From Escherichia phage tonn, in the sequence record NC_049815.1: 51,012 bases of DNA. One strand, 5' to 3'. Shown here piece after piece: positions 13,285 to 30,321 of the stretch; positions within the stretch are counted from its first letter, which is position 1, and every line of letters starts with the position of its first letter. The notes beneath the pieces were generated by a model that saw only the letters and a program-made list of their open reading frames with translations, did no database searches and was not told the DNA's origin. Position numbers and translations under genes: made by a program.

Positions 13285-13312
13285 ATTATAAAAGCTATTT
13301 GGTGCGTGTCAA
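13285..13312 (-). promoter_or_regulatory. consensus sigma70 promoter TTGACA-16-TATAAT (leftward early promoter)
   Basis: perfect -35 (13312..13307) and -10 (13290..13285) hexamers on - strand with 16-bp spacer. Confidence 0.6.
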
Positions 13313-13419
13313 TGTTTTTGTTGTATTCAAAACGTTACCAATATCGAAAAACTACAAAATCATGCGCAAGTTATTGATTTCAGGGCTGTTATTTTTCTGT
13401 TCACGCTGTTAACGCAATC

Positions 13420-13630
13420 CGCCGGAAAAAGTATATATACATATGCAATCCGCCGCGCGCGCAACTATCCATATATACCCACACACAACCACACCATAAC
13501 CAACAAAAAGCACTGTAACAGTGAGAACAAAAAGAAAACATTATAGATATATATAAATAAATAATCTTTATTTTCAATGTATTATAAAGGATTTTTTTTG
13601 TTTTTTCCGTTTTCGATACACCGGAAAACC
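13420..13630. repeat. AT-rich noncoding element, copy A (homologous to 34036..34280)
   Basis: shared ordered blocks CGCCGGA..TATATACATA, CACAAACAACCAAAACCACAA-like CA-rich run, ATAAATAAATAA, TCGATA(A)CACCGGAAAAC. Confidence 0.55.
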
Positions 13631-13748
13631 GCGCGGAAACACGCCGCCTGAAATCGGTAACAGGGGTGAACAAAAGACAACAACCGCTGACAGCCAGGCG
13701 GAAAAGTGAGGCAAGAGGGGAAGGTTTCACTATCTCCCCTGCAACCAA

Positions 13749-13840
13749 TGATTAAACGTGATTACTTTTCTCATCAAATTTGCAAAGGCAATCATCATTT
13801 TGACGAGATTTGATTACGAATGATTACTTTTGATTATTTC
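13749..13840. repeat. iteron-like direct repeats of TGATTAC(TTTT) (5 copies)
   Basis: TGATTA at 13749, 13759, 13811, 13821, 13831. Confidence 0.5.
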
Positions 13841-13865
13841 GATCGCAATCCTGGCGATAACCGTC

Positions 13866-13886
13866 AAATAGCACTTTTTGTTAAAA
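13866..13886 (+). promoter_or_regulatory. 21-bp intergenic motif copy (rightward) with TACATT 22 bp downstream
   Basis: exact AAATAGCACTTTTTGTTAAAA; leader CATCGAAACGAAC at 13917..13929. Confidence 0.5.
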
Positions 13887-13946
13887 CCCAGGCCGCCTGA
13901 TCGGGTACATTACACACATCGAAACGAACCGCTCAGGAGATAGTAA

Positions 13947-17162: not shown

Positions 17163-17549
17163 ATGAATGTTATCTGTAATGAAACCAACGTATTGATGAA
17201 AGGCCGTTTTAAAACGGTTTATCAGAAGATTGCAGGAAGTGATGATGTGATCGAGGTGGAAGAGTTCCAGGTTAAGACGCTTGTTAAGGGTAGCCGCTGG
17301 CTTCCAGCAAACCGAGATGATTACCGCGCCATTAACACAAAAACCGTTCTTTGCACGTTTGTAGATCATAACATGCCGTGCAAAAAGCACTTTAAGCAGG
17401 GCAAGCGATACCAGATCGAGAAAGGGCGACCGCTTGGAAGCGTTGCGGGTTATGTTTTTGATGAGTGCGGCGACCGCTGGAACCTGTACCGTGAAGAGGT
17501 AGGATTCTCTGCTGGCGGCTGTTATCTGTTTGAGGGCAAATATCTGTGA
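17163..17549 (+). CDS. hypothetical protein
   Basis: 128 aa; GGAG RBS. Confidence 0.5.
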   Translation: MNVICNETNVLMKGRFKTVYQKIAGSDDVIEVEEFQVKTLVKGSRWLPANRDDYRAINTKTVLCTFVDHNMPCKKHFKQGKRYQIEKGRPLGSVAGYVFDECGDRWNLYREEVGFSAGGCYLFEGKYL

Positions 17550-17782: not shown

Positions 17783-17835
17783 CGGGGTAGTATTGGGCCG
17801 TTAAAATTTACGGCCCACAAAGGAGAAGCTAACGA

Positions 17836-19416
17836 ATGTTTTCATTAGAAACGAACAAATTAACTCCACAACAAATAATCGCTATGGCTGAAAGCCAGAA
17901 CCTTTCGCCAGTTCGCGTATCAATTCAGGCTAACGGCTATCGCCAGTCGTCCAGCTTTTGGGGCGACGTAAAGGATGTGAATAGCGGTCACGATCGCTAC
18001 CCCGTTATTTCTCTTGGTAATGATATTGATGTTGTCGGCAAGTTATCACGCAGCATTGCGCGATCCGTTCAATTCCCTGAATCATCGGCTTACATGCACT
18101 TTATCGGCTGCATTTCTGCCGCTATGCTTGGACGCTTTACGGTTGACTATCACGGAACCGATCAGCCGACTGCGCTTTACGTCGTTACAAGCCAGCCGCC
18201 GTCAACTGGTAAATCTGCGATCAACAGCATGGCTATTGCTCCGATGATTGCGGAAGTTGAGAAGATCAACGAGCAACGCCGCAAGGAAAGAAAGAAAATA
18301 CAGGCAAAGCTGGCAGGTCTTGCAAAGGAGATGAAAAGCGAAAGATCCGGCGCTGATATGGAATCTCTATACCAGGAAAAAGAGGATCTGGAGGAAAAGC
18401 TGGAAAAAATGTGTGATATAACTTTTCCTGTTTCAGATACAACTCCAGAAGGCTTGGCGAAAATCAACAACAAGCAAGGTAACTTTGCCGTAATATCTGA
18501 TGAAGCAACAAGTATTAACAGTCTGTTAGGCTTGACCTATGCAAATAGCGAAAGGAAGACTAACAGTGAGTTAGTGCTTAAGGCGTGGGATAATGGTCAC
18601 GTATCAATTGCCCGTGCTAATGCTGACAATAATATGAGTTTTCGCGCGCTTGGATGTATGAGCGTCATAGCCCAGGATGAAACGATAAGCGGAATCATGG
18701 ACGCTGGATCGCGAGGCATCGGTGTTAGTGAGCGTTTTTTGTTGGTCCGAGAGGAATCATTCTTAGGCCGTCGCTCATTCATTGATGAAAATGGTGATTC
18801 TACCTATGAGGCGGTGGATTCTGAATTGAAAGCCCAATATTATCAATTGGTGCATAACATCATGAGCGAATCAAATATATCGCTGAAAATAAGCCGTTCA
18901 GCTATGCGAGTGCTCAACATTGCTCGCCAGGATATGGAACCGCATCTTGCAGACGGAGGAAAGTATTCTCATACAATGTTACGCGGTGCGCTGGGTAAAA
19001 TGGATAAACAGGTGATCAGGCTTGCTTCCGTCCTGCATGTTATCCGTAACTGGTTTAATCCTGCCGGATACCCGCAGAAGTCGAAAGAGATCGACGTGGA
19101 AACAATGCAAGAGGCGTTGATCATGTTTCAGGAATTGAGCAAAACATACATTAGCGCCGCCAATGCTTCTGGTTATGCTGGTGATGATGCTGAAATGGGT
19201 AAATTGATTGAATTGATCACGAGGCACGGCAAGGCTAATAAAGGGATTCTGAATATCCGCGCCCTGTACGAATCAGCGAGAAAGGTAAAACCTTTCGTTG
19301 GTCAGGCTGGCGTAATGAAAAGGATAGAAGGGCACTTACTGCCAATGCTGGAAGAAAGAAATTATGTTTGTGTGATTAATGGTGTTATTTTTGTCAATCC
19401 AATACTGCTGGGATGA
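17836..19416 (+). CDS. P-loop NTPase of unknown function (526 aa)
   Basis: Walker A-like SQPPSTGKSA (~res 120), charged coiled-coil-like insert, Walker B-like FAVISDEATS (~res 215); AAGGAG RBS. Confidence 0.6.
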   Translation: MFSLETNKLTPQQIIAMAESQNLSPVRVSIQANGYRQSSSFWGDVKDVNSGHDRYPVISLGNDIDVVGKLSRSIARSVQFPESSAYMHFIGCISAAMLGRFTVDYHGTDQPTALYVVTSQPPSTGKSAINSMAIAPMIAEVEKINEQRRKERKKIQAKLAGLAKEMKSERSGADMESLYQEKEDLEEKLEKMCDITFPVSDTTPEGLAKINNKQGNFAVISDEATSINSLLGLTYANSERKTNSELVLKAWDNGHVSIARANADNNMSFRALGCMSVIAQDETISGIMDAGSRGIGVSERFLLVREESFLGRRSFIDENGDSTYEAVDSELKAQYYQLVHNIMSESNISLKISRSAMRVLNIARQDMEPHLADGGKYSHTMLRGALGKMDKQVIRLASVLHVIRNWFNPAGYPQKSKEIDVETMQEALIMFQELSKTYISAANASGYAGDDAEMGKLIELITRHGKANKGILNIRALYESARKVKPFVGQAGVMKRIEGHLLPMLEERNYVCVINGVIFVNPILLG

Positions 19417-19808
19417 TTATGTTTTTGCTTGATCTGTATAAATGGTGTGAGTCATACGATTGGTTTAACAGGCAGCACATAGCCAAATTTATCTATCAGC
19501 ATAGAGAATGTGAGCGGCTCGCACGGGCCGCCGGACTTACGCCGCGAATGTTCGCCAGCCTTGCATCTAAGGAATTTTGCGCAAGAATGATGACGGCTGG
19601 TTATATAGATGGAGTCTGCGGAAAATACTGGTCCAAAGGATCGTCAAAGCGGCCTTTCGGATTCGAATTGTATAGCCTGGATGGTATGCGCAACGACTGG
19701 ATCAGGGATATAGCTAGAATAGGGGAGATGGGCGATGATGAATTGTTCCAGGCAAAAGCTAATAGACAAGATCTTGAAGCACTGCGCCGTAAATTCAATA
19801 TCACATGA
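19413..19808 (+). CDS. hypothetical protein
   Basis: 131 aa; ATGA overlap with NTPase gene. Confidence 0.5.
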   Translation: MIMFLLDLYKWCESYDWFNRQHIAKFIYQHRECERLARAAGLTPRMFASLASKEFCARMMTAGYIDGVCGKYWSKGSSKRPFGFELYSLDGMRNDWIRDIARIGEMGDDELFQAKANRQDLEALRRKFNIT

Positions 19809-20231: not shown

Positions 20232-20265
20232 AAATAAAGGAGGCATTAAGCCTCCTTTTTCTTTT
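20231..20265. terminator. bidirectional rho-independent terminator between convergent genes
   Basis: stem GGAGGC/GCCTCC with A-run before and T-run after. Confidence 0.6.
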
Positions 20266-24239: not shown

Positions 24240-24261
24240 TTTTAACAAAAAGTGCTATTTA
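24240..24261 (-). promoter_or_regulatory. 21-bp intergenic motif copy with hairpin GGCGCG..GCGCC and CATAAT
   Basis: motif match. Confidence 0.5.
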
Positions 24262-24674
24262 AGCATGTATTCAATAGCTAACTTAAACTGATTAAATCCG
24301 TAGGCGACCGCAGCGAATCCTCCTAAGCTGCGAACGCGACGCAAAAAAGACTTTTGTTCATCGCTGACTGGTGATGCTTTCCCCTTGCCTGATTTATTAA
24401 CTCGTTTGATCTCAATCGCTGCAAAGGGGTATTTTCCGTTTGAACCAATCAGGATGATGAAATCGCTTACCCCCTTAACCAAGCCGGACTGCTGATCAAT
24501 CATCGCCGTTACTTTCGACTTCTCATTCTCGTTTACCGTATGCCACGCTAGCAAATAAGGATGAGCATAAGTCAACCACTGAAAGCTATCTATCTGGTGA
24601 TTAACTTCCTTTCTCGTGTCGGTTGGATCTCTTTCGTAAAACTCAAGATAATCTCCTTTATCAGTTATAGCCAT
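24255..24674 (-). CDS. VRR-NUC domain nuclease
   Basis: 139 aa; D-x(n)-E-x-K PD-(D/E)xK-like core (DFIILIG...AIEIK). Confidence 0.55.
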   Translation of the reverse strand: MAITDKGDYLEFYERDPTDTRKEVNHQIDSFQWLTYAHPYLLAWHTVNENEKSKVTAMIDQQSGLVKGVSDFIILIGSNGKYPFAAIEIKRVNKSGKGKASPVSDEQKSFLRRVRSLGGFAAVAYGFNQFKLAIEYMLK

Positions 24675-26671
24675 TAAACAAACTCCCGTTTTGCAATGTT
24701 ATCCTCACCTTTGCCGTTTTTGCGATGCGTTACGCGTACAGGCGGCATGATGTGATGAGCGTATGACATTATTTTACGAGCATTTCTATAGCTCGCCACC
24801 ATACCAGCAATCTTGCGATCCGGTATGTGCTGCAATGCTATTTTTCTCCATATCGTCCGGCAAATGTTGCTTTCTGACTCAGGGAAAAATCTTTCGTATG
24901 CCTTGAACGTGTCTCCGTTGGCCTCAAGCTCATAGCAAAAAATAATTCCTTTCTGGTTTTTCGTCATATCAACGAGGAAAGATTTAACGTTGCACCAATC
25001 GTTTTTGGTGTAGTGCTTACCGCTTAACTTCTCGTTAGGATCGACAAGAGAAATATCGCAACAACGGCATACTCTCGCCACTACGTCGTTTTTTGTTCCG
25101 CAACCGCGCTTGATTATCTTTTTCGTTCTCTGATCTACCTGGTCCTCGCAAATTCTGTAAGTCCAAAAATGCTCACATCGCTTCCCGTTATCGTCTACGT
25201 GCATACATCGGCGAGCGTAAAAGCTGTTTAGCGTTCCACATATCGGACAAGTCTTAGGCTCTTTCCCGTTTGTAAATCTCTTTTGGAATTGCGCTTGCTC
25301 AAGGATTGGATCGAAATACAAATCACCTAACTCATCCATAGTACCTGCAAAATCCAATACAAGATGATCTTTTTTCTTGAATCCCTGCTCAATGTGCCAT
25401 TGCTTAAGCAGTCGCATGCCGCGCCCCAAAAGCTGGATAAGCAATGTTAGAGATCCTATCTTTCTCAGTATTACAGAAGTATCCCAAAACGGAACGTTAA
25501 CGCCAGTGGTAAGCGCCTGTACCTGGAAGATGTATTTTACTTTTCCCTCGTATGCCTCCCTCAGCCACTCTTTACGCTGATTATCTCCAGTCTTGCCAGT
25601 TATGATCCTGTATTCAACGCCTGGCGGCAGTGCGGCGGCGGCCTCCTTGCAGTGCCTTTCCCCTGCGCATGTAACTAAAACTCCGTTCCTGTCTTTGCAT
25701 ATCTCATGGACTTTAGCCATGATTTTCTGTGTCATTGTTGCGTCTTGATGGATCTTTTCTTCCATCTTGCGCAATGTTTTAGCGTCAAAGTCTGAAACGC
25801 CATCCTCGCTACTGGCTTCGAACTCTGAAAGGTCATAACCCAGGTCGCCTACGTCGCCGAAGTTTGTTGGCACTACCGAACCGAATTTGATTAAGTAGTT
25901 TGTGTCTATGTTAGTCACCTGCTCACGCCAGAATCCCTTTTTGTTCTTATCTTCAACCAGTATTGGAACCACGCCGCGAAACTCAGATCCAGTCATGCCG
26001 AATATTCGCAATTCGTGCCCGTATGCCTCGCGACACCTACGCATCATTTCCATGATTATTACGGTGTACTGTGTGCGCCCTGTTCCGAACATTGGATCGC
26101 CATTGGAATCAAATTGCTGTTCTTCTCCAATCAGTACAGGCAAATCCTTCTTAGTGGTCATCTGCTGGTAAGATTCATTATTTTCTATCGCGTCCGCGAG
26201 ATCCTCCCAATCCACCTGGTGACATTCATCAATACCGATAACGTGCGGAACATAGTCACCTAACGACTTAAACAATCCGTTTACTACAGTGCCCTCAGAA
26301 CCGACTACGATCGGAAAGTATGCGCTTTTTGTTTTCAGTCCTGCGCAATAGATTGAGTTTGGCACGCCAAGATTGCTGATCTCTTCCGAATCCTGATCAA
26401 CAATTTCAGCCTGGCGAGCAAGGACCATCATTTTCAATCCCATTTTGCGGCATTGCGCCGCAACCATCGCAAACATCAATGTTTTGCCAGCCGATACAGA
26501 AGCCTTAACAAAGAAAGGATGCTCATAGTTTTTCATGCGCTTTGCGATCTCAGCATACGCAACGCACTGATAAGGATAAGGCACTATATTGCCAACCGTG
26601 AATCGCTCTTGGATGCTTTTTATTACTGCCTCGCCTAACGCTGATATTTGTTTTTCGATATTTGGAATCAT
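24674..26671 (-). CDS. SF2 DNA helicase
   Basis: 665 aa; Walker A VSAGKT, DEAD-like GIDECH, C-terminal Cys-rich zinc-finger-like region. Confidence 0.8.
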   Translation of the reverse strand: MIPNIEKQISALGEAVIKSIQERFTVGNIVPYPYQCVAYAEIAKRMKNYEHPFFVKASVSAGKTLMFAMVAAQCRKMGLKMMVLARQAEIVDQDSEEISNLGVPNSIYCAGLKTKSAYFPIVVGSEGTVVNGLFKSLGDYVPHVIGIDECHQVDWEDLADAIENNESYQQMTTKKDLPVLIGEEQQFDSNGDPMFGTGRTQYTVIIMEMMRRCREAYGHELRIFGMTGSEFRGVVPILVEDKNKKGFWREQVTNIDTNYLIKFGSVVPTNFGDVGDLGYDLSEFEASSEDGVSDFDAKTLRKMEEKIHQDATMTQKIMAKVHEICKDRNGVLVTCAGERHCKEAAAALPPGVEYRIITGKTGDNQRKEWLREAYEGKVKYIFQVQALTTGVNVPFWDTSVILRKIGSLTLLIQLLGRGMRLLKQWHIEQGFKKKDHLVLDFAGTMDELGDLYFDPILEQAQFQKRFTNGKEPKTCPICGTLNSFYARRCMHVDDNGKRCEHFWTYRICEDQVDQRTKKIIKRGCGTKNDVVARVCRCCDISLVDPNEKLSGKHYTKNDWCNVKSFLVDMTKNQKGIIFCYELEANGDTFKAYERFFPESESNICRTIWRKIALQHIPDRKIAGMVASYRNARKIMSYAHHIMPPVRVTHRKNGKGEDNIAKREFV

Positions 26672-26758: not shown

Positions 26759-27235
26759 ATGAAAGATGCACGAATTGCAGTTTCTACGGGTGAGATCGAC
26801 AAGCGCACTATTAACGGTAACAACGGAACGCGACGAGGTAAAGACAAAAAGCCACGAAAACACCGAACCGGATTTCTTATCCTGCGAGATGAGGTAAAAG
26901 CAAGCCTGAAATCTCGCCTGGATATTCTGATCGAGTATTATGGCGGTGTTCCTGCTATGGCTCGACGTCTACGCGTATCTCAGCAAGTCGTTAACCAATG
27001 GCGAAAGCGTGGTATGATTTCAGCCGCTGGAGCACAAAAGGTGCATAACGACTACAAATATAATGGATGCAAAGGATACCGCGCATCATTTTGTCGTCCA
27101 GATCTGCGGTTTGATTCTAACGGTAAGCCTCTTACTACCCGTTGCGACAAATACGAGATGTTGCGCGTAGTCAAAAATTCAGACTACGAACCAGGCGGAC
27201 GATTCTACAAAGGTGATAACAGCACAAATAGCTAA
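26759..27235 (+). CDS. Cro/YdaS-like HTH DNA-binding protein (putative regulator)
   Basis: HTH-like segment GGVPAMARRLRVSQQVVNQWRKRG. Confidence 0.5.
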   Translation: MKDARIAVSTGEIDKRTINGNNGTRRGKDKKPRKHRTGFLILRDEVKASLKSRLDILIEYYGGVPAMARRLRVSQQVVNQWRKRGMISAAGAQKVHNDYKYNGCKGYRASFCRPDLRFDSNGKPLTTRCDKYEMLRVVKNSDYEPGGRFYKGDNSTNS

Positions 27236-27290
27236 TGATAAGGCTCAGCGAAATGATAATATTTGCTGGGCTTTTTTATTGAGGTTTGCC

Positions 27291-28220
27291 ATGAATACTG
27301 AAAACTTTATGACCTATCAGAAAGAAGATGTTTTGCCATATATGAAGGGGTTATGGCGTGAAGCACTACAAAGCATTTGCGGACTGCATAGCGATGTTTT
27401 CAACAAAAAGCATCAGCCTTGCCCACACTGCGGCGGTAAGGATCGTTTTAGGTGGACTGATAAGCTAAATGAAGAGGGCGACGGCGGCGCGATCTGCAAC
27501 GTATGCGGCAACGACACGGGGATCGGTTGGTTAATGAAATTAACTGGCGAACCTTACAGCGAGGCCATCAACATTTTGGGCCGCTTCCTCGGAAAAGTGC
27601 CACAAGATTACAGAATCAGAGCAAACAAACGCGCTTCGCGTTCTTCTGGTTACTCGTTCGGGAAACAGGCAAGTCATGAATGTTGCGAAAAAGTGATGGC
27701 AAAAACATTAAAATTCGATCGCACACCTTTAAGCGTTTATGAGGGGATATATCCGCCGGAAGATTGTCATTATGATTGCGGCGTCAAGGATGGTCGATAC
27801 ATTCACGCGCTACCTTGTCACCTGGTGCATGATGACGGGCTGGATGATGAAATGTGTAACGTGCTTTTCATTGATGAGGATGGAAAGGATTGGTTTTTAG
27901 CTCGCGACTACACGCGCGGATCTGTTGTTAAAACAGGTAGCACAGATAAGACGATCTATTTGTGCCTTGATTGGGTTGATTCTCAGCATGTTCATTTATC
28001 AACTGGTCAAGAGGTGTGGGCCTGTTTTACTCCTTCAAATCTTGAAATGGTTGCGCATAGATATAAAGGAGAAAGAAGAATGCGCGTAGTCTGCCGGAAA
28101 GATGATCGTGATGTGATAATCGCGGCAGAGGAAAGAGGGCTTGACATAATGATGCCTGTTAACGATAATTTTAAACATGGCGTAGAAAGAAAAATCTACA
28201 AGCCTGAATCACTGCTATAA
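27291..28220 (+). CDS. DNA primase (zinc-binding domain)
   Basis: CPHCGG...CNVCGN zinc-ribbon near N-terminus; start set to ATG 27291 with GAGG RBS. Confidence 0.6.
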   Translation: MNTENFMTYQKEDVLPYMKGLWREALQSICGLHSDVFNKKHQPCPHCGGKDRFRWTDKLNEEGDGGAICNVCGNDTGIGWLMKLTGEPYSEAINILGRFLGKVPQDYRIRANKRASRSSGYSFGKQASHECCEKVMAKTLKFDRTPLSVYEGIYPPEDCHYDCGVKDGRYIHALPCHLVHDDGLDDEMCNVLFIDEDGKDWFLARDYTRGSVVKTGSTDKTIYLCLDWVDSQHVHLSTGQEVWACFTPSNLEMVAHRYKGERRMRVVCRKDDRDVIIAAEERGLDIMMPVNDNFKHGVERKIYKPESLL

Positions 28221-28261: not shown

Positions 28262-28326
28262 GCATTTAAAAATGCTATTATCTGAATTGTCATTGGCAAA
28301 AAGTGCTATTTAGGAGGATTTTACAA

Positions 28327-30321
28327 ATGGCGATTTACAGACAAGGCCAAGCGTCTATGGACGCGCAAGGTTATGTAACTGGTTACGGTACAAAATGGCG
28401 TGAGCAATTAACCTTGATTCGCCCAGGTGCAACTATTTTCTTTCTTTCTCAACCTTTGCAAGCTGCTGTGATTACGGAAGTGATTAGCGATACAAGCATT
28501 CGCGCAATTACTACTGGCGGCGCGGTAGTACAGAAGACAAATTACCTGATCTTGCTTCATGACTCGTTAACGGTTGACGGTCTTGCGCAAGACGTAGCGG
28601 AAACGCTGCGTTATTACCAGGGGAAGGAATCGGAGTTTGCTGGATTTATTGAGATCATCAAGGATTTTGATTGGGATAAGCTACAGAAGATCCAGGAAGA
28701 CGTAAAGACAAATGCTGATGCAGCATCAGCAAGCAAGCAGGCAGCTAAAACCAGCGAGAATAACGCGAAGACAAGCGCAACAAATGCAGCGAATAGCGAG
28801 AAAGGTGCTGATACTGCAAAGGCTGCCGCTGAATCCGCGCGCGACGCTGCAAACACTGCAAAGACTGGAGCTGAAACAGCAAAGTCTGGCGCTGAATCCG
28901 CGCGTGACGCTGCGAACACTGCAAAGGCAGGAGCTGAAAGTGCGCGAGATCAAGCGGAGGAATACGCAAAGCAGGCCGCAGAACCTTACAAAGATTTATT
29001 GCAACCGTTGCCGGACGTGTGGATACCGTTTAATGATTCACTTGATATGATAACTGGTTTTGCGCCTGGGTATAAAAAGATAAAAGTTGGTGATGATGTG
29101 ATCAATATGCCGTCAGATAAAGTTGTAAATTTTAAGCGAGCATCAAAGGCGACATACATTAATAAGTCGGGATTTCTTACTGATGCTGACATTGACGAAC
29201 CGCGTTTTGAACGTGAAGGCTTGCTAATTGAGGGGCAGAGAACAAACCTTCTCATAAATAGTACCAATCCTTCAAAATGGAACAAGTCATCAAACATGGT
29301 GTTAAGCCAATCAGGAGTTGATGATTTCGGTTTTTCATTTGGCAAGTTTACATTAAAGCCAGAAATGGTAGGGAAAACATCGGCTATTAACATAGTTACA
29401 GTATCTGCTAATAAGGGTTTTGATGTTACTGGTGAAGAAAAAAGAGTAACAATCTCATGCAGAGTCAAGGGTGGTGAAGGAAACATAAGATGCAGACTTA
29501 AATTTGAAAGTTATAATGATAGCGGATATACCTTTCTAGGTGGTGCTTATCTCGGTCTTGAGGATTTGTCAATAGAAAAAACCGGCGGCGCTGCAAACAG
29601 GATAACAGCAAGAGCGGTAATGGATGAGTCAAGCAAATGGATATTTTTTGAGGCTACGATCACAGCATTAGAACAGGAAAGCATGATTGGTGCAATGGTG
29701 CAATATGCCCCGCGAAAAGGAGGAAGCACAGAAGTTGATGATTACATATACATCTCAACACCTCAATTGGAAGGTGGTGCGTGCTCGTCGTCATTTATCG
29801 TCACAGAGGGAACTCCTGCGACAAGGGCTAGTGACTTAGTTAATGTCGTGTCATTTAATAATTTAATATCTCACCCGCTTAGTTTTTTGCTTGAGGTAAA
29901 TAAAACATGGACTACCTTACCAAATTCATCGCCGAGGATATGGGATATTGGTGCGCCTGATGTTGGCGAGTCAATGGTATGCTCAATAAGAAGCGATAAA
30001 CATTCAACATACTGGAATATTGCTAGATATGGCGAGTCACCAACCGTATACATTTCCACTGAAATAAAGAATAATTATGATTCTGCTCAGGGAGCAATAA
30101 CAGTTGGCGGAGTATACGACGGGAGTTATGCGTATATCTTTTCAAATTCCGTAAAAGGGAACAAAGCAGAGGTTAAGCATGGTTTTAAGCCAACAACCAG
30201 TAAGATAATAAGATTCGGTGGCGCAGGATCTGATGGTGCTCGTCACTTTTTCGGACACTTAAGAAACTTCCGCATATGGCACAAGACACTAACAGATCAC
30301 CAAATGGGGGAAATTGTATAA
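28327..30321 (+). CDS. tail fibre protein
   Basis: ATG 28327 with AGGAGG RBS; Ala-rich 21-aa tandem repeats typical of fibre shafts; C-terminal beta-rich domain. Confidence 0.8.
   Translation: MAIYRQGQASMDAQGYVTGYGTKWREQLTLIRPGATIFFLSQPLQAAVITEVISDTSIRAITTGGAVVQKTNYLILLHDSLTVDGLAQDVAETLRYYQGKESEFAGFIEIIKDFDWDKLQKIQEDVKTNADAASASKQAAKTSENNAKTSATNAANSEKGADTAKAAAESARDAANTAKTGAETAKSGAESARDAANTAKAGAESARDQAEEYAKQAAEPYKDLLQPLPDVWIPFNDSLDMITGFAPGYKKIKVGDDVINMPSDKVVNFKRASKATYINKSGFLTDADIDEPRFEREGLLIEGQRTNLLINSTNPSKWNKSSNMVLSQSGVDDFGFSFGKFTLKPEMVGKTSAINIVTVSANKGFDVTGEEKRVTISCRVKGGEGNIRCRLKFESYNDSGYTFLGGAYLGLEDLSIEKTGGAANRITARAVMDESSKWIFFEATITALEQESMIGAMVQYAPRKGGSTEVDDYIYISTPQLEGGACSSSFIVTEGTPATRASDLVNVVSFNNLISHPLSFLLEVNKTWTTLPNSSPRIWDIGAPDVGESMVCSIRSDKHSTYWNIARYGESPTVYISTEIKNNYDSAQGAITVGGVYDGSYAYIFSNSVKGNKAEVKHGFKPTTSKIIRFGGAGSDGARHFFGHLRNFRIWHKTLTDHQMGEIV
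28828..28953 (+). repeat. two tandem 63-bp direct repeats inside the tail fibre gene
   Basis: GCTGAATCCGCGCG(C/T)GACGCTGC(A/G)AACACTGCAAAG... repeated at 28828 and 28891. Confidence 0.7.

What the first reader, a model, noticed from the sequence alone, without database searches (positions are those of the whole stretch)
17836..19416. 526-aa P-loop NTPase of unknown function in the rightward early arm
Largest non-structural ORF without an obvious role: Walker A-like SQPPSTGKSA about 120 residues in, a ~50-residue highly charged helical insert (EVEKINEQRRKERKKIQAKLAGLAKEMK...), a Walker B-like hhhhDE (FAVISDEATS), and a further ~300 residues with no recognised motif. The architecture does not match the helicase (24674..26671), terminase or primase already present. 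Candidates include an accessory replication ATPase (e.g. DUF3987/primase-associated type), an anti-defense ATPase, or an abortive-infection/exclusion factor.
Basis: partly seen in the sequence, partly recalled or inferred. Interest (0 to 1): 0.6.

Follow-up and report, generated by a model that had tools for sequence, protein, structure and literature searches.

The report
T1-like phage MCM-like replicative helicase (DUF3987)
The 526-aa "unknown P-loop NTPase" is the DUF3987 helicase that all T1-like phages carry: an MCM-like AAA+ motor with a winged-helix tail that most likely unwinds DNA at the phage replication fork. Public records already annotate it as a helicase, so it is ordinary.

Summary
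It is not an orphan. It matches Pfam DUF3987 (E 1.7e-44) and PHROG 2373 "DNA helicase" (E 2.6e-244). It is 100% identical to the swan01 protein, and RefSeq relatives call it "DNA helicase". The window is a T1-like Drexlerviridae coliphage; 924 phage records, including T1 itself, carry an ortholog.

Relatives are fused to DnaG zinc-finger, PriCT-2 or DnaB N-terminal domains. In distant phages the gene sits next to a primase, an SF2 helicase and recombination genes. One DUF3987 protein (AgaPH) is a proven 5'→3' helicase.

Best reading: the phage's hexameric replicative helicase, working with the phage primase and host polymerase. This is already known at family level and untested in T1-like phages. 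Low interest.

The parts
17836..19416 (+). Complete gene for the 526-aa DUF3987 / MCM-like AAA+ helicase (stop codon included)
   Evidence: ORF and translation. Pfam DUF3987 E 1.7e-44 over residues 81-430. PHROG 2373 'DNA helicase' E 2.6e-244 over the full length. 100% identical to the swan01 protein and 99-100% to other Warwickvirus proteins annotated 'DNA helicase'.
17820..17825 (+). Shine-Dalgarno AAGGAG, 10 nt upstream of the ATG
   Evidence: Read directly from the sequence.
17836..18126 (+). N-terminal helical region (residues 1-97): a small three-helix bundle, a linker with invariant W42, and two helices leading into the ATPase. There is no OB-fold or zinc domain.
   Evidence: Secondary structure of the AF2 model. 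No Pfam hit when scanned alone. In relatives this end carries fused DnaG zinc-finger, PriCT-2 or DnaB_N domains.
18190..18216 (+). Walker A / P-loop SQPPSTGKS (residues 119-127), catalytic K126
   Evidence: Q120, P121, P122, G125, K126 and S127 are invariant in 34 homologs. K126 is 140/140 in diverse representatives. The equivalent K213A mutation kills AgaPH helicase activity.
18241..18420 (+). Charged helical hairpin insert (residues ~136-195) that extends the helix after the P-loop and returns before strand beta2
   Evidence: AF2 helices 126-168 and 172-191. 48% of its residues are charged. The Walker A Lys to Walker B Glu spacing is 97 here, with a median of 98 (range 54-115) across 140 relatives, so the insert is family-wide although poorly conserved in sequence.
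18484..18504 (+). Walker B strand FAVISDE (residues 217-223), catalytic E223
   Evidence: AF2 strand 217-221. E223 is 143/143, S221 is 134/144, and D222 is D in only 53/144. The equivalent E297Q mutation kills AgaPH helicase activity.
18598..18645 (+). Beta-hairpin before strand beta4 (residues 255-270) with invariant R260. It sits where MCM has its pre-sensor-1 beta-hairpin, so it is a candidate DNA-contacting pore loop.
   Evidence: AF2 strands 255-258 and 267-270. R260 is 144/144. The assignment as a pre-sensor-1 hairpin is inferred from topology and the MCM/clade-7 fold matches.
18652..18681 (+). Strand beta4 plus the 'IAQDE' motif (residues 273-282). Q280 is the sensor-1 candidate.
   Evidence: AF2 strand 273-279. 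Q280 is 142/143.
18727..18738 (+). 'SERF' motif (residues 298-301). R300 is the arginine-finger candidate, at the position and with the look of the MCM 'SRF' motif.
   Evidence: R300 is 142/142 and E299 is 132/144. It lies just before strand 301-305. The comparison with the MCM SRF motif rests on general knowledge, not on a computed alignment.
18766..19155 (+). Post-beta5 insert and helical lid (residues 311-440), with near-invariant R313, G384 and K388 (sensor-2 candidates R383/K388)
   Evidence: AF2 helices 329-343, 354-371, 380-387, 389-405 and 421-445. K388 is 141/141 and R313 is 133/144.
19156..19413 (+). C-terminal winged-helix domain (residues ~441-526)
19413..19808 (+). Translationally coupled downstream gene (ATGA overlap) for a 131-aa winged-helix protein found only in Drexlerviridae. 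It is a possible accessory or DNA-binding partner.
20236..20258 (.). Bidirectional intrinsic-terminator-like hairpin that closes the rightward arm holding the helicase
   Evidence: A 9-bp stem with T-runs on both strands.
27213..28220 (+). Phage primase with a T7 gp4/P4-type zinc ribbon. It is the inferred functional partner. The true start is probably the ATG at 27291.
   Evidence: Pfam Zn_Ribbon_Prim E 4.9e-15. PHROG 510 'DNA primase' E 8.7e-109. A DnaG-type primase lies next to the DUF3987 gene in distant relatives.
24674..26671 (-). SF2 (ResIII/Helicase_C) helicase. It co-occurs with DUF3987 in every lineage examined and probably acts in recombination or fork remodelling.
   Evidence: Pfam and PHROG 16 hits. 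It is adjacent to or near DUF3987 in L003, L004, L006, L007 and L008.

Best explanation
The gene encodes the replicative DNA helicase of this T1-like phage. It is a DUF3987-family AAA+ ATPase whose motor domain has the MCM (clade-7 AAA+, 'superfamily 6') fold. Inferred mechanism: subunits assemble into a ring. ATP binds at subunit interfaces between the P-loop (K126) and Walker B E223 of one subunit and the 'SERF' arginine R300 of its neighbour. Hydrolysis moves the beta-hairpin carrying invariant R260 along single-stranded DNA in the central channel and so unwinds the duplex. By analogy with the only characterised family member (AgaPH), the polarity is probably 5'->3'. That would put the ring on the lagging-strand template, where the phage zinc-ribbon primase (27.2 kb) can prime. 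The phage encodes no polymerase, so DNA synthesis would be done by host DNA polymerase III. The C-terminal winged helix, and perhaps the translationally coupled 131-aa winged-helix protein, would supply DNA or partner binding for loading. Shown here: family membership, fold, motif conservation, domain fusions and synteny. Inferred: oligomeric state, helicase activity, polarity, partners, and that this protein rather than the SF2 helicase or host DnaB is the fork helicase.
Against: No experiment exists on any Drexlerviridae member. The family literature I could read (the TLS re-annotation, PMC11447400) names only the SF2 helicase as 'the helicase'. In this window the gene is not adjacent to the primase (about 7.8 kb away, with the lysis genes and several leftward genes in between). 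AgaPH is a distant member whose similarity to this protein I could not measure. Sequence-level searches do not reach MCM or any solved structure, so the MCM link rests on a predicted model. MCM relatives also include recombination helicases (MCM8/9, ComM), and the conserved neighbours include as many recombination genes as replication genes. I could not retrieve the classical data on T1's dependence on host dnaB or dnaG. No iterons or origin-like repeats were found near the gene.
Confidence: 0.72

Rival explanations
1. It is a recombination or fork-restart helicase rather than the fork helicase. On this view it is an MCM8/9- or ComM-like ring translocase that drives branch migration or recombination-dependent replication together with ExoVIII, Erf and SSB, while host DnaB or the SF2 helicase unwinds the fork.
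Against: Fusions are to primase modules and to the DnaB N-terminal (primase-binding) domain, not to recombinases. A primase is the immediate neighbour in three of the five compact modules examined (L004/L005, L006 and L008). The characterised member stimulates strand-displacement synthesis by its primase-polymerase. The SF2 helicase with VRR-NUC is the more typical recombination or fork-remodelling pair.
Confidence: 0.13
2. It is an initiator or loader-type AAA+ protein. On this view it recognises and melts the phage origin through its winged helix, or recruits host DnaB as lambda P or DnaC do, but does not travel with the fork.
Confidence: 0.1
3. It is an anti-defence, abortive-infection or superinfection-exclusion ATPase unrelated to replication.
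For: Only circumstantial. It lies in an early arm rich in small accessory genes, and a gene two positions upstream (a 128-aa ORF) appears to be the reported SECphi27 trigger of Mokosh type I.
Against: There is no PADLOC hit. It is a strictly conserved core gene across 924 phage genomes, whereas counter-defence genes are usually variable. Its fold, motifs, fusions and synteny all point to DNA replication. It was not reported among the SECphi27 escape loci in the passages I read.
Confidence: 0.02

Closest known systems
AgaPH (PriCT-DUF3987 helicase of a Seonamhaeicola mobile element; PMC11724360)
   Same: Same Pfam family (DUF3987). Both have a Walker A Lys and a Walker B Glu separated by a long spacer (K213 to E297 is 84 residues there; K126 to E223 is 97 here) and a small C-terminal domain. 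AgaPH is oligomeric and is associated with a primase.
   Different: AgaPH has an N-terminal PriCT domain and partners with an AEP primase-polymerase. The phage protein has a short helical N-terminus, and the phage primase is of the zinc-ribbon type encoded about 7.8 kb away. I could not measure the direct sequence identity. The activity and 5'->3' polarity are shown only for AgaPH.
MCM helicases (archaeal MCM, eukaryotic Mcm2-7, MCM8/9)
   Different: There is no detectable sequence similarity (no Pfam MCM hit at E<=1; 9-18% identity in structural alignments). The MCM N-terminal tier (OB-fold and zinc finger) is absent. There is an extra ~60-residue charged helical hairpin after the P-loop helix. 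The Walker B Asp is not conserved. The one assayed DUF3987 member has 5'->3' polarity, opposite to MCM's 3'->5'.
N4 dns protein and mycobacteriophage Corndog SF6 helicase (Kazlauskas et al. 2016, PMC4889955)
   Same: They are phage DUF3987 proteins proposed as replicative helicases. N4 dns is genetically essential for replication, as cited in that paper.
   Different: N4 dns carries a C-terminal AEP primase domain, whereas the T1-like protein is a stand-alone helicase. I made no direct comparison here.
MGE initiator-helicases: SCCmec Cch, SaPI Rep/primase-helicase (DUF927), P4 alpha
   Different: They belong to different families and score clearly lower than MCM. Their origins with iterons lie next to the gene, and no such repeats were found here.

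Membership tests
DUF3987 (Pfam PF13148) | Scores above the curated gathering threshold of the family HMM over most of the model | tested here: met
   152.9 bits against a cut-off of 27, E 1.7e-44, residues 81-430 on model positions 3-350 of 364.
DUF3987 (Pfam PF13148) | Conserved Walker A (GK[ST]) and Walker B Glu, the residues required for AgaPH activity | tested here: met
   K126 is 140/140 and E223 is 143/143 in diverse relatives. K213A and E297Q inactivate AgaPH.
DUF3987 (Pfam PF13148) | [quoted passage not shown] | tested here: met
   [not shown]
DUF3987 (Pfam PF13148) | Association with an AEP or DnaG-type primase, fused or encoded nearby | tested here: met
   Fusions in relatives. A primase is adjacent in L004/L005, L006 and L008. 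In the window itself the primase is present but about 7.8 kb away.
DUF3987 (Pfam PF13148) | ATP-dependent 5'->3' DNA unwinding by an oligomer | not testable with these tools
   Known only for AgaPH. It needs biochemistry on the phage protein.
MCM family proper (Pfam PF00493; archaeo-eukaryotic replicative helicase) | AAA+ core of the MCM / clade-7 type | tested here: met
   [not shown]
MCM family proper (Pfam PF00493; archaeo-eukaryotic replicative helicase) | Sequence-level match to the MCM profile | tested here: not met
   No PF00493 hit at E<=1, and no MCM chain in PDB sequence or profile searches at E<=10.
MCM family proper (Pfam PF00493; archaeo-eukaryotic replicative helicase) | N-terminal tier with an OB-fold and zinc-binding subdomain | tested here: not met
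   Residues 1-97 are all-helical in the model and have no Pfam hit.
MCM family proper (Pfam PF00493; archaeo-eukaryotic replicative helicase) | Helix-2 insert beta-hairpin between Walker A and Walker B | tested here: inconclusive
   The space between Walker A and B is filled by a long alpha-helical hairpin (126-168 and 172-191), not a beta-hairpin. I had no model coordinates and so could not superpose it on MCM.
DnaB / SF4 RecA-fold replicative helicases | RecA-type DnaB_C motor domain | tested here: not met
   No DnaB_C hit, and the structural neighbours are AAA+ proteins, not RecA-fold helicases. One relative fuses DnaB_N to DUF3987 in place of DnaB_C.
Known anti-phage defence / abortive-infection ATPases (PADLOC-DB) | Match to any model of a defence-system protein | tested here: not met
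   0 families at E<=1.

The most novel reading that the evidence does not exclude
T1-like phages may run a hybrid replisome. In it an MCM-type AAA+ ring that lacks the MCM N-terminal tier translocates 5'->3', the opposite direction to MCM. It would be coupled directly to a bacterial-type zinc-ribbon primase and to the host Pol III holoenzyme. The adaptor would be the family-specific ~60-residue charged helical hairpin and/or the N-terminal three-helix bundle, and the coupled 131-aa winged-helix protein would act as a dedicated loader or origin factor. This would give a tractable E. coli system for studying how an MCM-like motor can be rewired in polarity and in its partners.
Probability: 0.2. 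Interest if true: 0.55.

Novelty: already known. Interest (0 to 1): 0.2.

Why it matters
It matters little as a discovery. The same protein is in GenBank and RefSeq as "DNA helicase". The family was predicted to be a replicative helicase in 2016, and one member was confirmed biochemically in 2025. There is some practical value. About half of the deposited T1-like records listed here still call the gene "hypothetical protein". The 2024 TLS re-annotation names only the SF2 helicase, so the likely fork helicase of one of the classic T-phages is overlooked. No DUF3987 protein was detectable in the PDB by sequence or profile search. T1-like phages grow on E. coli K-12, so this protein would be a convenient model for the structure, polarity and host-polymerase coupling of MCM-like bacterial and phage helicases.

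Tried and rejected
- NCBIfam and PADLOC scans gave no hits.
- PDB sequence searches with the single protein and with the 34-sequence profile gave only spurious coiled-coil matches. The MCM link therefore had to come from the predicted structure.
- A second word-indexed homolog search with the alignment added only seven new distant sequences.
- I searched for an origin near the gene. Tandem repeats, direct and inverted repeats within 12.5-21.5 kb, and GC skew gave no iteron array. The skew simply follows the coding strand.
- I tried to link the gene to the classical T1 DNA-synthesis-negative genes 1 and 2, and to T1's dependence on host dnaB and dnaG. The relevant papers (Roberts 2004 and the older genetics) are not held, and searches found nothing usable. 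The supplement of Kazlauskas 2016 is not held either.
- I looked for defence-escape or sensor data implicating this protein, in Stokar-Avihail 2022 and the 2026 Avs paper. Neither mentions it.
- The GC-rich hairpin just upstream of the RBS folds only marginally better than shuffled sequence (z -1.9). T1 has no intergenic space upstream of its ortholog, so the hairpin cannot be there, and I did not pursue it.
- I considered and rejected the anti-defence/Abi reading and SF3 or SF4 helicase membership (see the rivals and membership table).

Full report
**Observation**

It has an AAGGAG ribosome-binding site 10 nt upstream. The three features described are present: SQPPSTGKSA at residues 119-128, a highly charged helical stretch from about 139 to 191, and FAVISDEATS at 217-226. 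The gene sits in a rightward block of + strand genes (about 13.9-20.2 kb) that ends at a bidirectional terminator-like hairpin at 20236-20258. Its stop codon overlaps the start of the next ORF (ATGA).

**What genome this is**

The window is a T1-like coliphage of the Drexlerviridae, genus Warwickvirus. A 3.5-kb stretch around the gene is 99.9% identical to phages vB-Eco-KMB46 and tunzivis and 99% identical to SECphi27. The protein is 100% identical to that of swan01. RefSeq records of these phages already call the gene "DNA helicase", for example SECphi27 gp11 and swan01 gp70. About half of the GenBank records listed still say "hypothetical protein". By tblastn, 924 phage records hold a homolog and 910 of them cover at least 80% of the query. 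T1 itself has a 58%-identical ortholog, labelled "hypothetical protein" in the T1 record MK213796.1. It is therefore a core gene of the family.

**Family**

- The protein matches Pfam DUF3987 (PF13148) at 152.9 bits against a cut-off of 27 (E 1.7e-44, residues 81-430).
- It matches PHROG 2373 "DNA helicase" over its full length (E 2.6e-244).
- NCBIfam and PADLOC give nothing.
- An exhaustive profile search of 1.84 billion cluster representatives found 6,207 relatives at E<=1e-3 and 403 at E<=1e-30.

**Fold**

An AlphaFold2 model built from 34 homologs (down to 34% identity) is confident: pLDDT 88.1, pTM 0.86.

- Foldseek against the PDB returns only MCM subunits in the top 50.
- The N-terminal 97 residues are helical, with no OB-fold or zinc module.
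- No sequence-level link to MCM or to any solved structure was detectable. No DUF3987 structure was detectable in the PDB by sequence.

**Motifs**

I aligned the 144 further diverse representatives from the exhaustive search to the family profile.

| Residue | Conservation | Assigned role |
|---|---|---|
| K126 | 140/140 | Walker A lysine |
| E223 | 143/143 | Walker B glutamate |
| R260 | 144/144 | in the beta-hairpin 255-270 preceding beta4, where MCM has its pre-sensor-1 hairpin |
| Q280 | 142/143 | end of beta4, sensor-1 candidate |
| R300 | 142/142 | in "SERF" just before beta5, arginine-finger candidate |
| K388 | 141/141 | in the lid, sensor-2 candidate |

The family signature is therefore S-x-E rather than D-E. 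The charged insert is not special to this phage. The Walker A Lys to Walker B Glu spacing is 97 residues here and has a median of 98 (range 54-115) across the family. In the model the insert is an alpha-helical hairpin (helices 126-168 and 172-191) that extends the helix following the P-loop. Its sequence is poorly conserved, but it is consistently charged (median 39% charged residues; 48% here). I could not determine where it would sit in a ring.

**Functional context**

- *Domain fusions.* Longer relatives carry, in front of the DUF3987 domain, a DnaG-type CHC2 zinc finger, a PriCT-2 domain, an NrS-1 polymerase helix-bundle domain or the DnaB N-terminal domain. In the last case DUF3987 occupies the place of DnaB's RecA-type motor.
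- *Synteny.* In four metagenomic phage lineages and in Klebsiella phage KlebP_265 (33-37% identity) the gene heads a compact module. The order is DUF3987, a small ORF, a DnaG-type primase, an SF2 ResIII helicase, an HNH or VRR-NUC nuclease, ExoVIII/DUF3799, Erf or AAA_24, and SSB. T1-like genomes contain the same set, only dispersed. In the window these are the primase (27213..28220, zinc ribbon of the T7 gp4/P4 type), the SF2 helicase (24674..26671, - strand) and VRR-NUC (24255..24674, - strand). ExoVIII, Erf and SSB are annotated in the 99%-identical swan01 genome.
- *No polymerase.* No DNA polymerase gene is annotated in these phages, as the TLS paper also states.

**Literature**

- Kazlauskas et al. 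2016 classified phage DUF3987 proteins as divergent SF6 (MCM-related) helicases with a C-terminal wHTH. They noted that these are usually fused to or encoded next to AEP or DnaG primases, and proposed them as replicative helicases. The replication-essential N4 dns protein is a member.
- Kazlauskas et al. 2018 made the same prediction for MGE primase fusions.
- In 2025 the PriCT-DUF3987 protein AgaPH was shown to be an oligomeric, ATP/dATP-dependent 5'->3' helicase. It binds its primase-polymerase, stimulates its strand-displacement synthesis, and is inactivated by K213A or E297Q. These correspond to K126 and E223 here.
- A 2021 genome paper on the related Pantoea phage AAS23 already called its DUF3987 protein a putative helicase.
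- The 2024 TLS/T1 re-annotation discusses only the SF2 helicase and the primase as the replication pair.

**Interpretation**

The best-supported reading (confidence about 0.7) is that this is the phage's ring-shaped replicative helicase. It would be an MCM-like AAA+ motor working with the phage zinc-ribbon primase and host Pol III, probably with 5'->3' polarity, and using its winged helix for loading or partner binding.

- *Shown here, by computation:* family, fold, motif conservation, fusions and synteny.
- *Inferred:* ring assembly, unwinding, polarity, partners, and that this protein rather than the SF2 helicase or host DnaB is the fork helicase.

The main rival (about 0.13) is a recombination or restart translocase like MCM8/9 or ComM. 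The structural neighbours and the recombination-rich neighbourhood make this plausible. A pure initiator or loader role (about 0.1) is less likely, given the translocase-type conserved hairpin arginine and the DnaB_N fusion. An anti-defence or Abi role (about 0.02) has no support.

**Comparison and novelty**

The protein is a bona fide DUF3987 member, and all the sequence-testable features are met. It works like MCM but is not an MCM. There is no profile match and no N-terminal OB/zinc tier. It has an extra helical hairpin and a non-canonical Walker B. The one assayed family member has the opposite polarity to MCM. Identical proteins are already deposited and annotated, and the family function is published, so the finding is already known. 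What remains of interest is modest. The likely fork helicase of the classic phage T1 group has never been tested, and no DUF3987 structure was detectable in the PDB.

**Side observations**

- The 128-aa ORF two genes upstream (17163..17549) corresponds to SECphi27 gp13. It is probably the "128-aa protein of unknown function" reported as the trigger of Mokosh type I.

Noticed in passing
window 17163..17549 (+): This 128-aa ORF (PHROG 2684, unknown function, no Pfam hit) lies two genes upstream of the helicase and corresponds to SECphi27 gp13. [quoted passage not shown] It is the only 128-aa CDS in the 19-kb SECphi27 stretch I examined. I did not check the rest of that genome or the paper's tables.
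   Followed up: partly
[not shown]
   Followed up: yes
window 17794..17817 (+): An 8-bp GC-rich hairpin (UGGGCCGU-N8-ACGGCCCA) sits in the 68-nt intergenic space immediately upstream of the helicase Shine-Dalgarno, with no T-run after it. The region folds only marginally better than shuffles (z -1.9). T1 has no intergenic space upstream of its ortholog, so it cannot carry this hairpin. It could be an RNA stability or processing element, or chance.
   Followed up: partly
window 13285..13312 (-) and 13290..13946: A perfect consensus sigma-70 promoter (TTGACA-16-TATAAT, 12/12) points leftward at the edge of a ~650-bp divergent intergenic region that also holds TGATTA-containing direct repeats (13749-13769 and 13811-13831). 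No comparably strong rightward promoter for the arm carrying the helicase was found by the consensus scan.
   Followed up: no
window 28799..28939 (+), inside ORF 28303..30321: A 63-nt tandem repeat (2.2 copies, 85% matches, score 212) lies within the 672-aa gene that follows the primase. That gene is annotated 'tail protein' in swan01. The repeat is in frame (21 codons).
   Followed up: no
phage records MG065641.1, MG065636.1 (Campylobacter phages A14a/A16a) and OR786094.1 (Streptococcus phage MBBL140): Records attributed to Campylobacter jejuni and Streptococcus agalactiae phages carry this helicase at 80-88% amino-acid identity to the coliphage protein, within ~47-50-kb T1-like genomes. Their host assignments look doubtful and may reflect T1-like contaminants.
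   Followed up: no
window 27213..28220 (+): The mechanical primase ORF starts at GTG 27213 (335 aa), but relatives annotate shorter products (T1 306 aa, swan01 228 aa). The ATG at 27291 (309 aa) is the more likely start. Pfam detects only the zinc ribbon. PHROG 510 aligns it to the N-terminal half of a 667-position primase profile, so longer members of that family may carry a further domain.
   Followed up: partly
loci L003, L004/L005, L006, L007, L008: In distant relatives the DUF3987 gene is the first or second gene of the rightward early operon, directly after a 450-700-bp divergent intergenic region and next to the terminase genes on the other strand. In the T1-like window about 4 kb of small genes plus a cytosine methylase are inserted between the divergent region and the helicase.
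   Followed up: no
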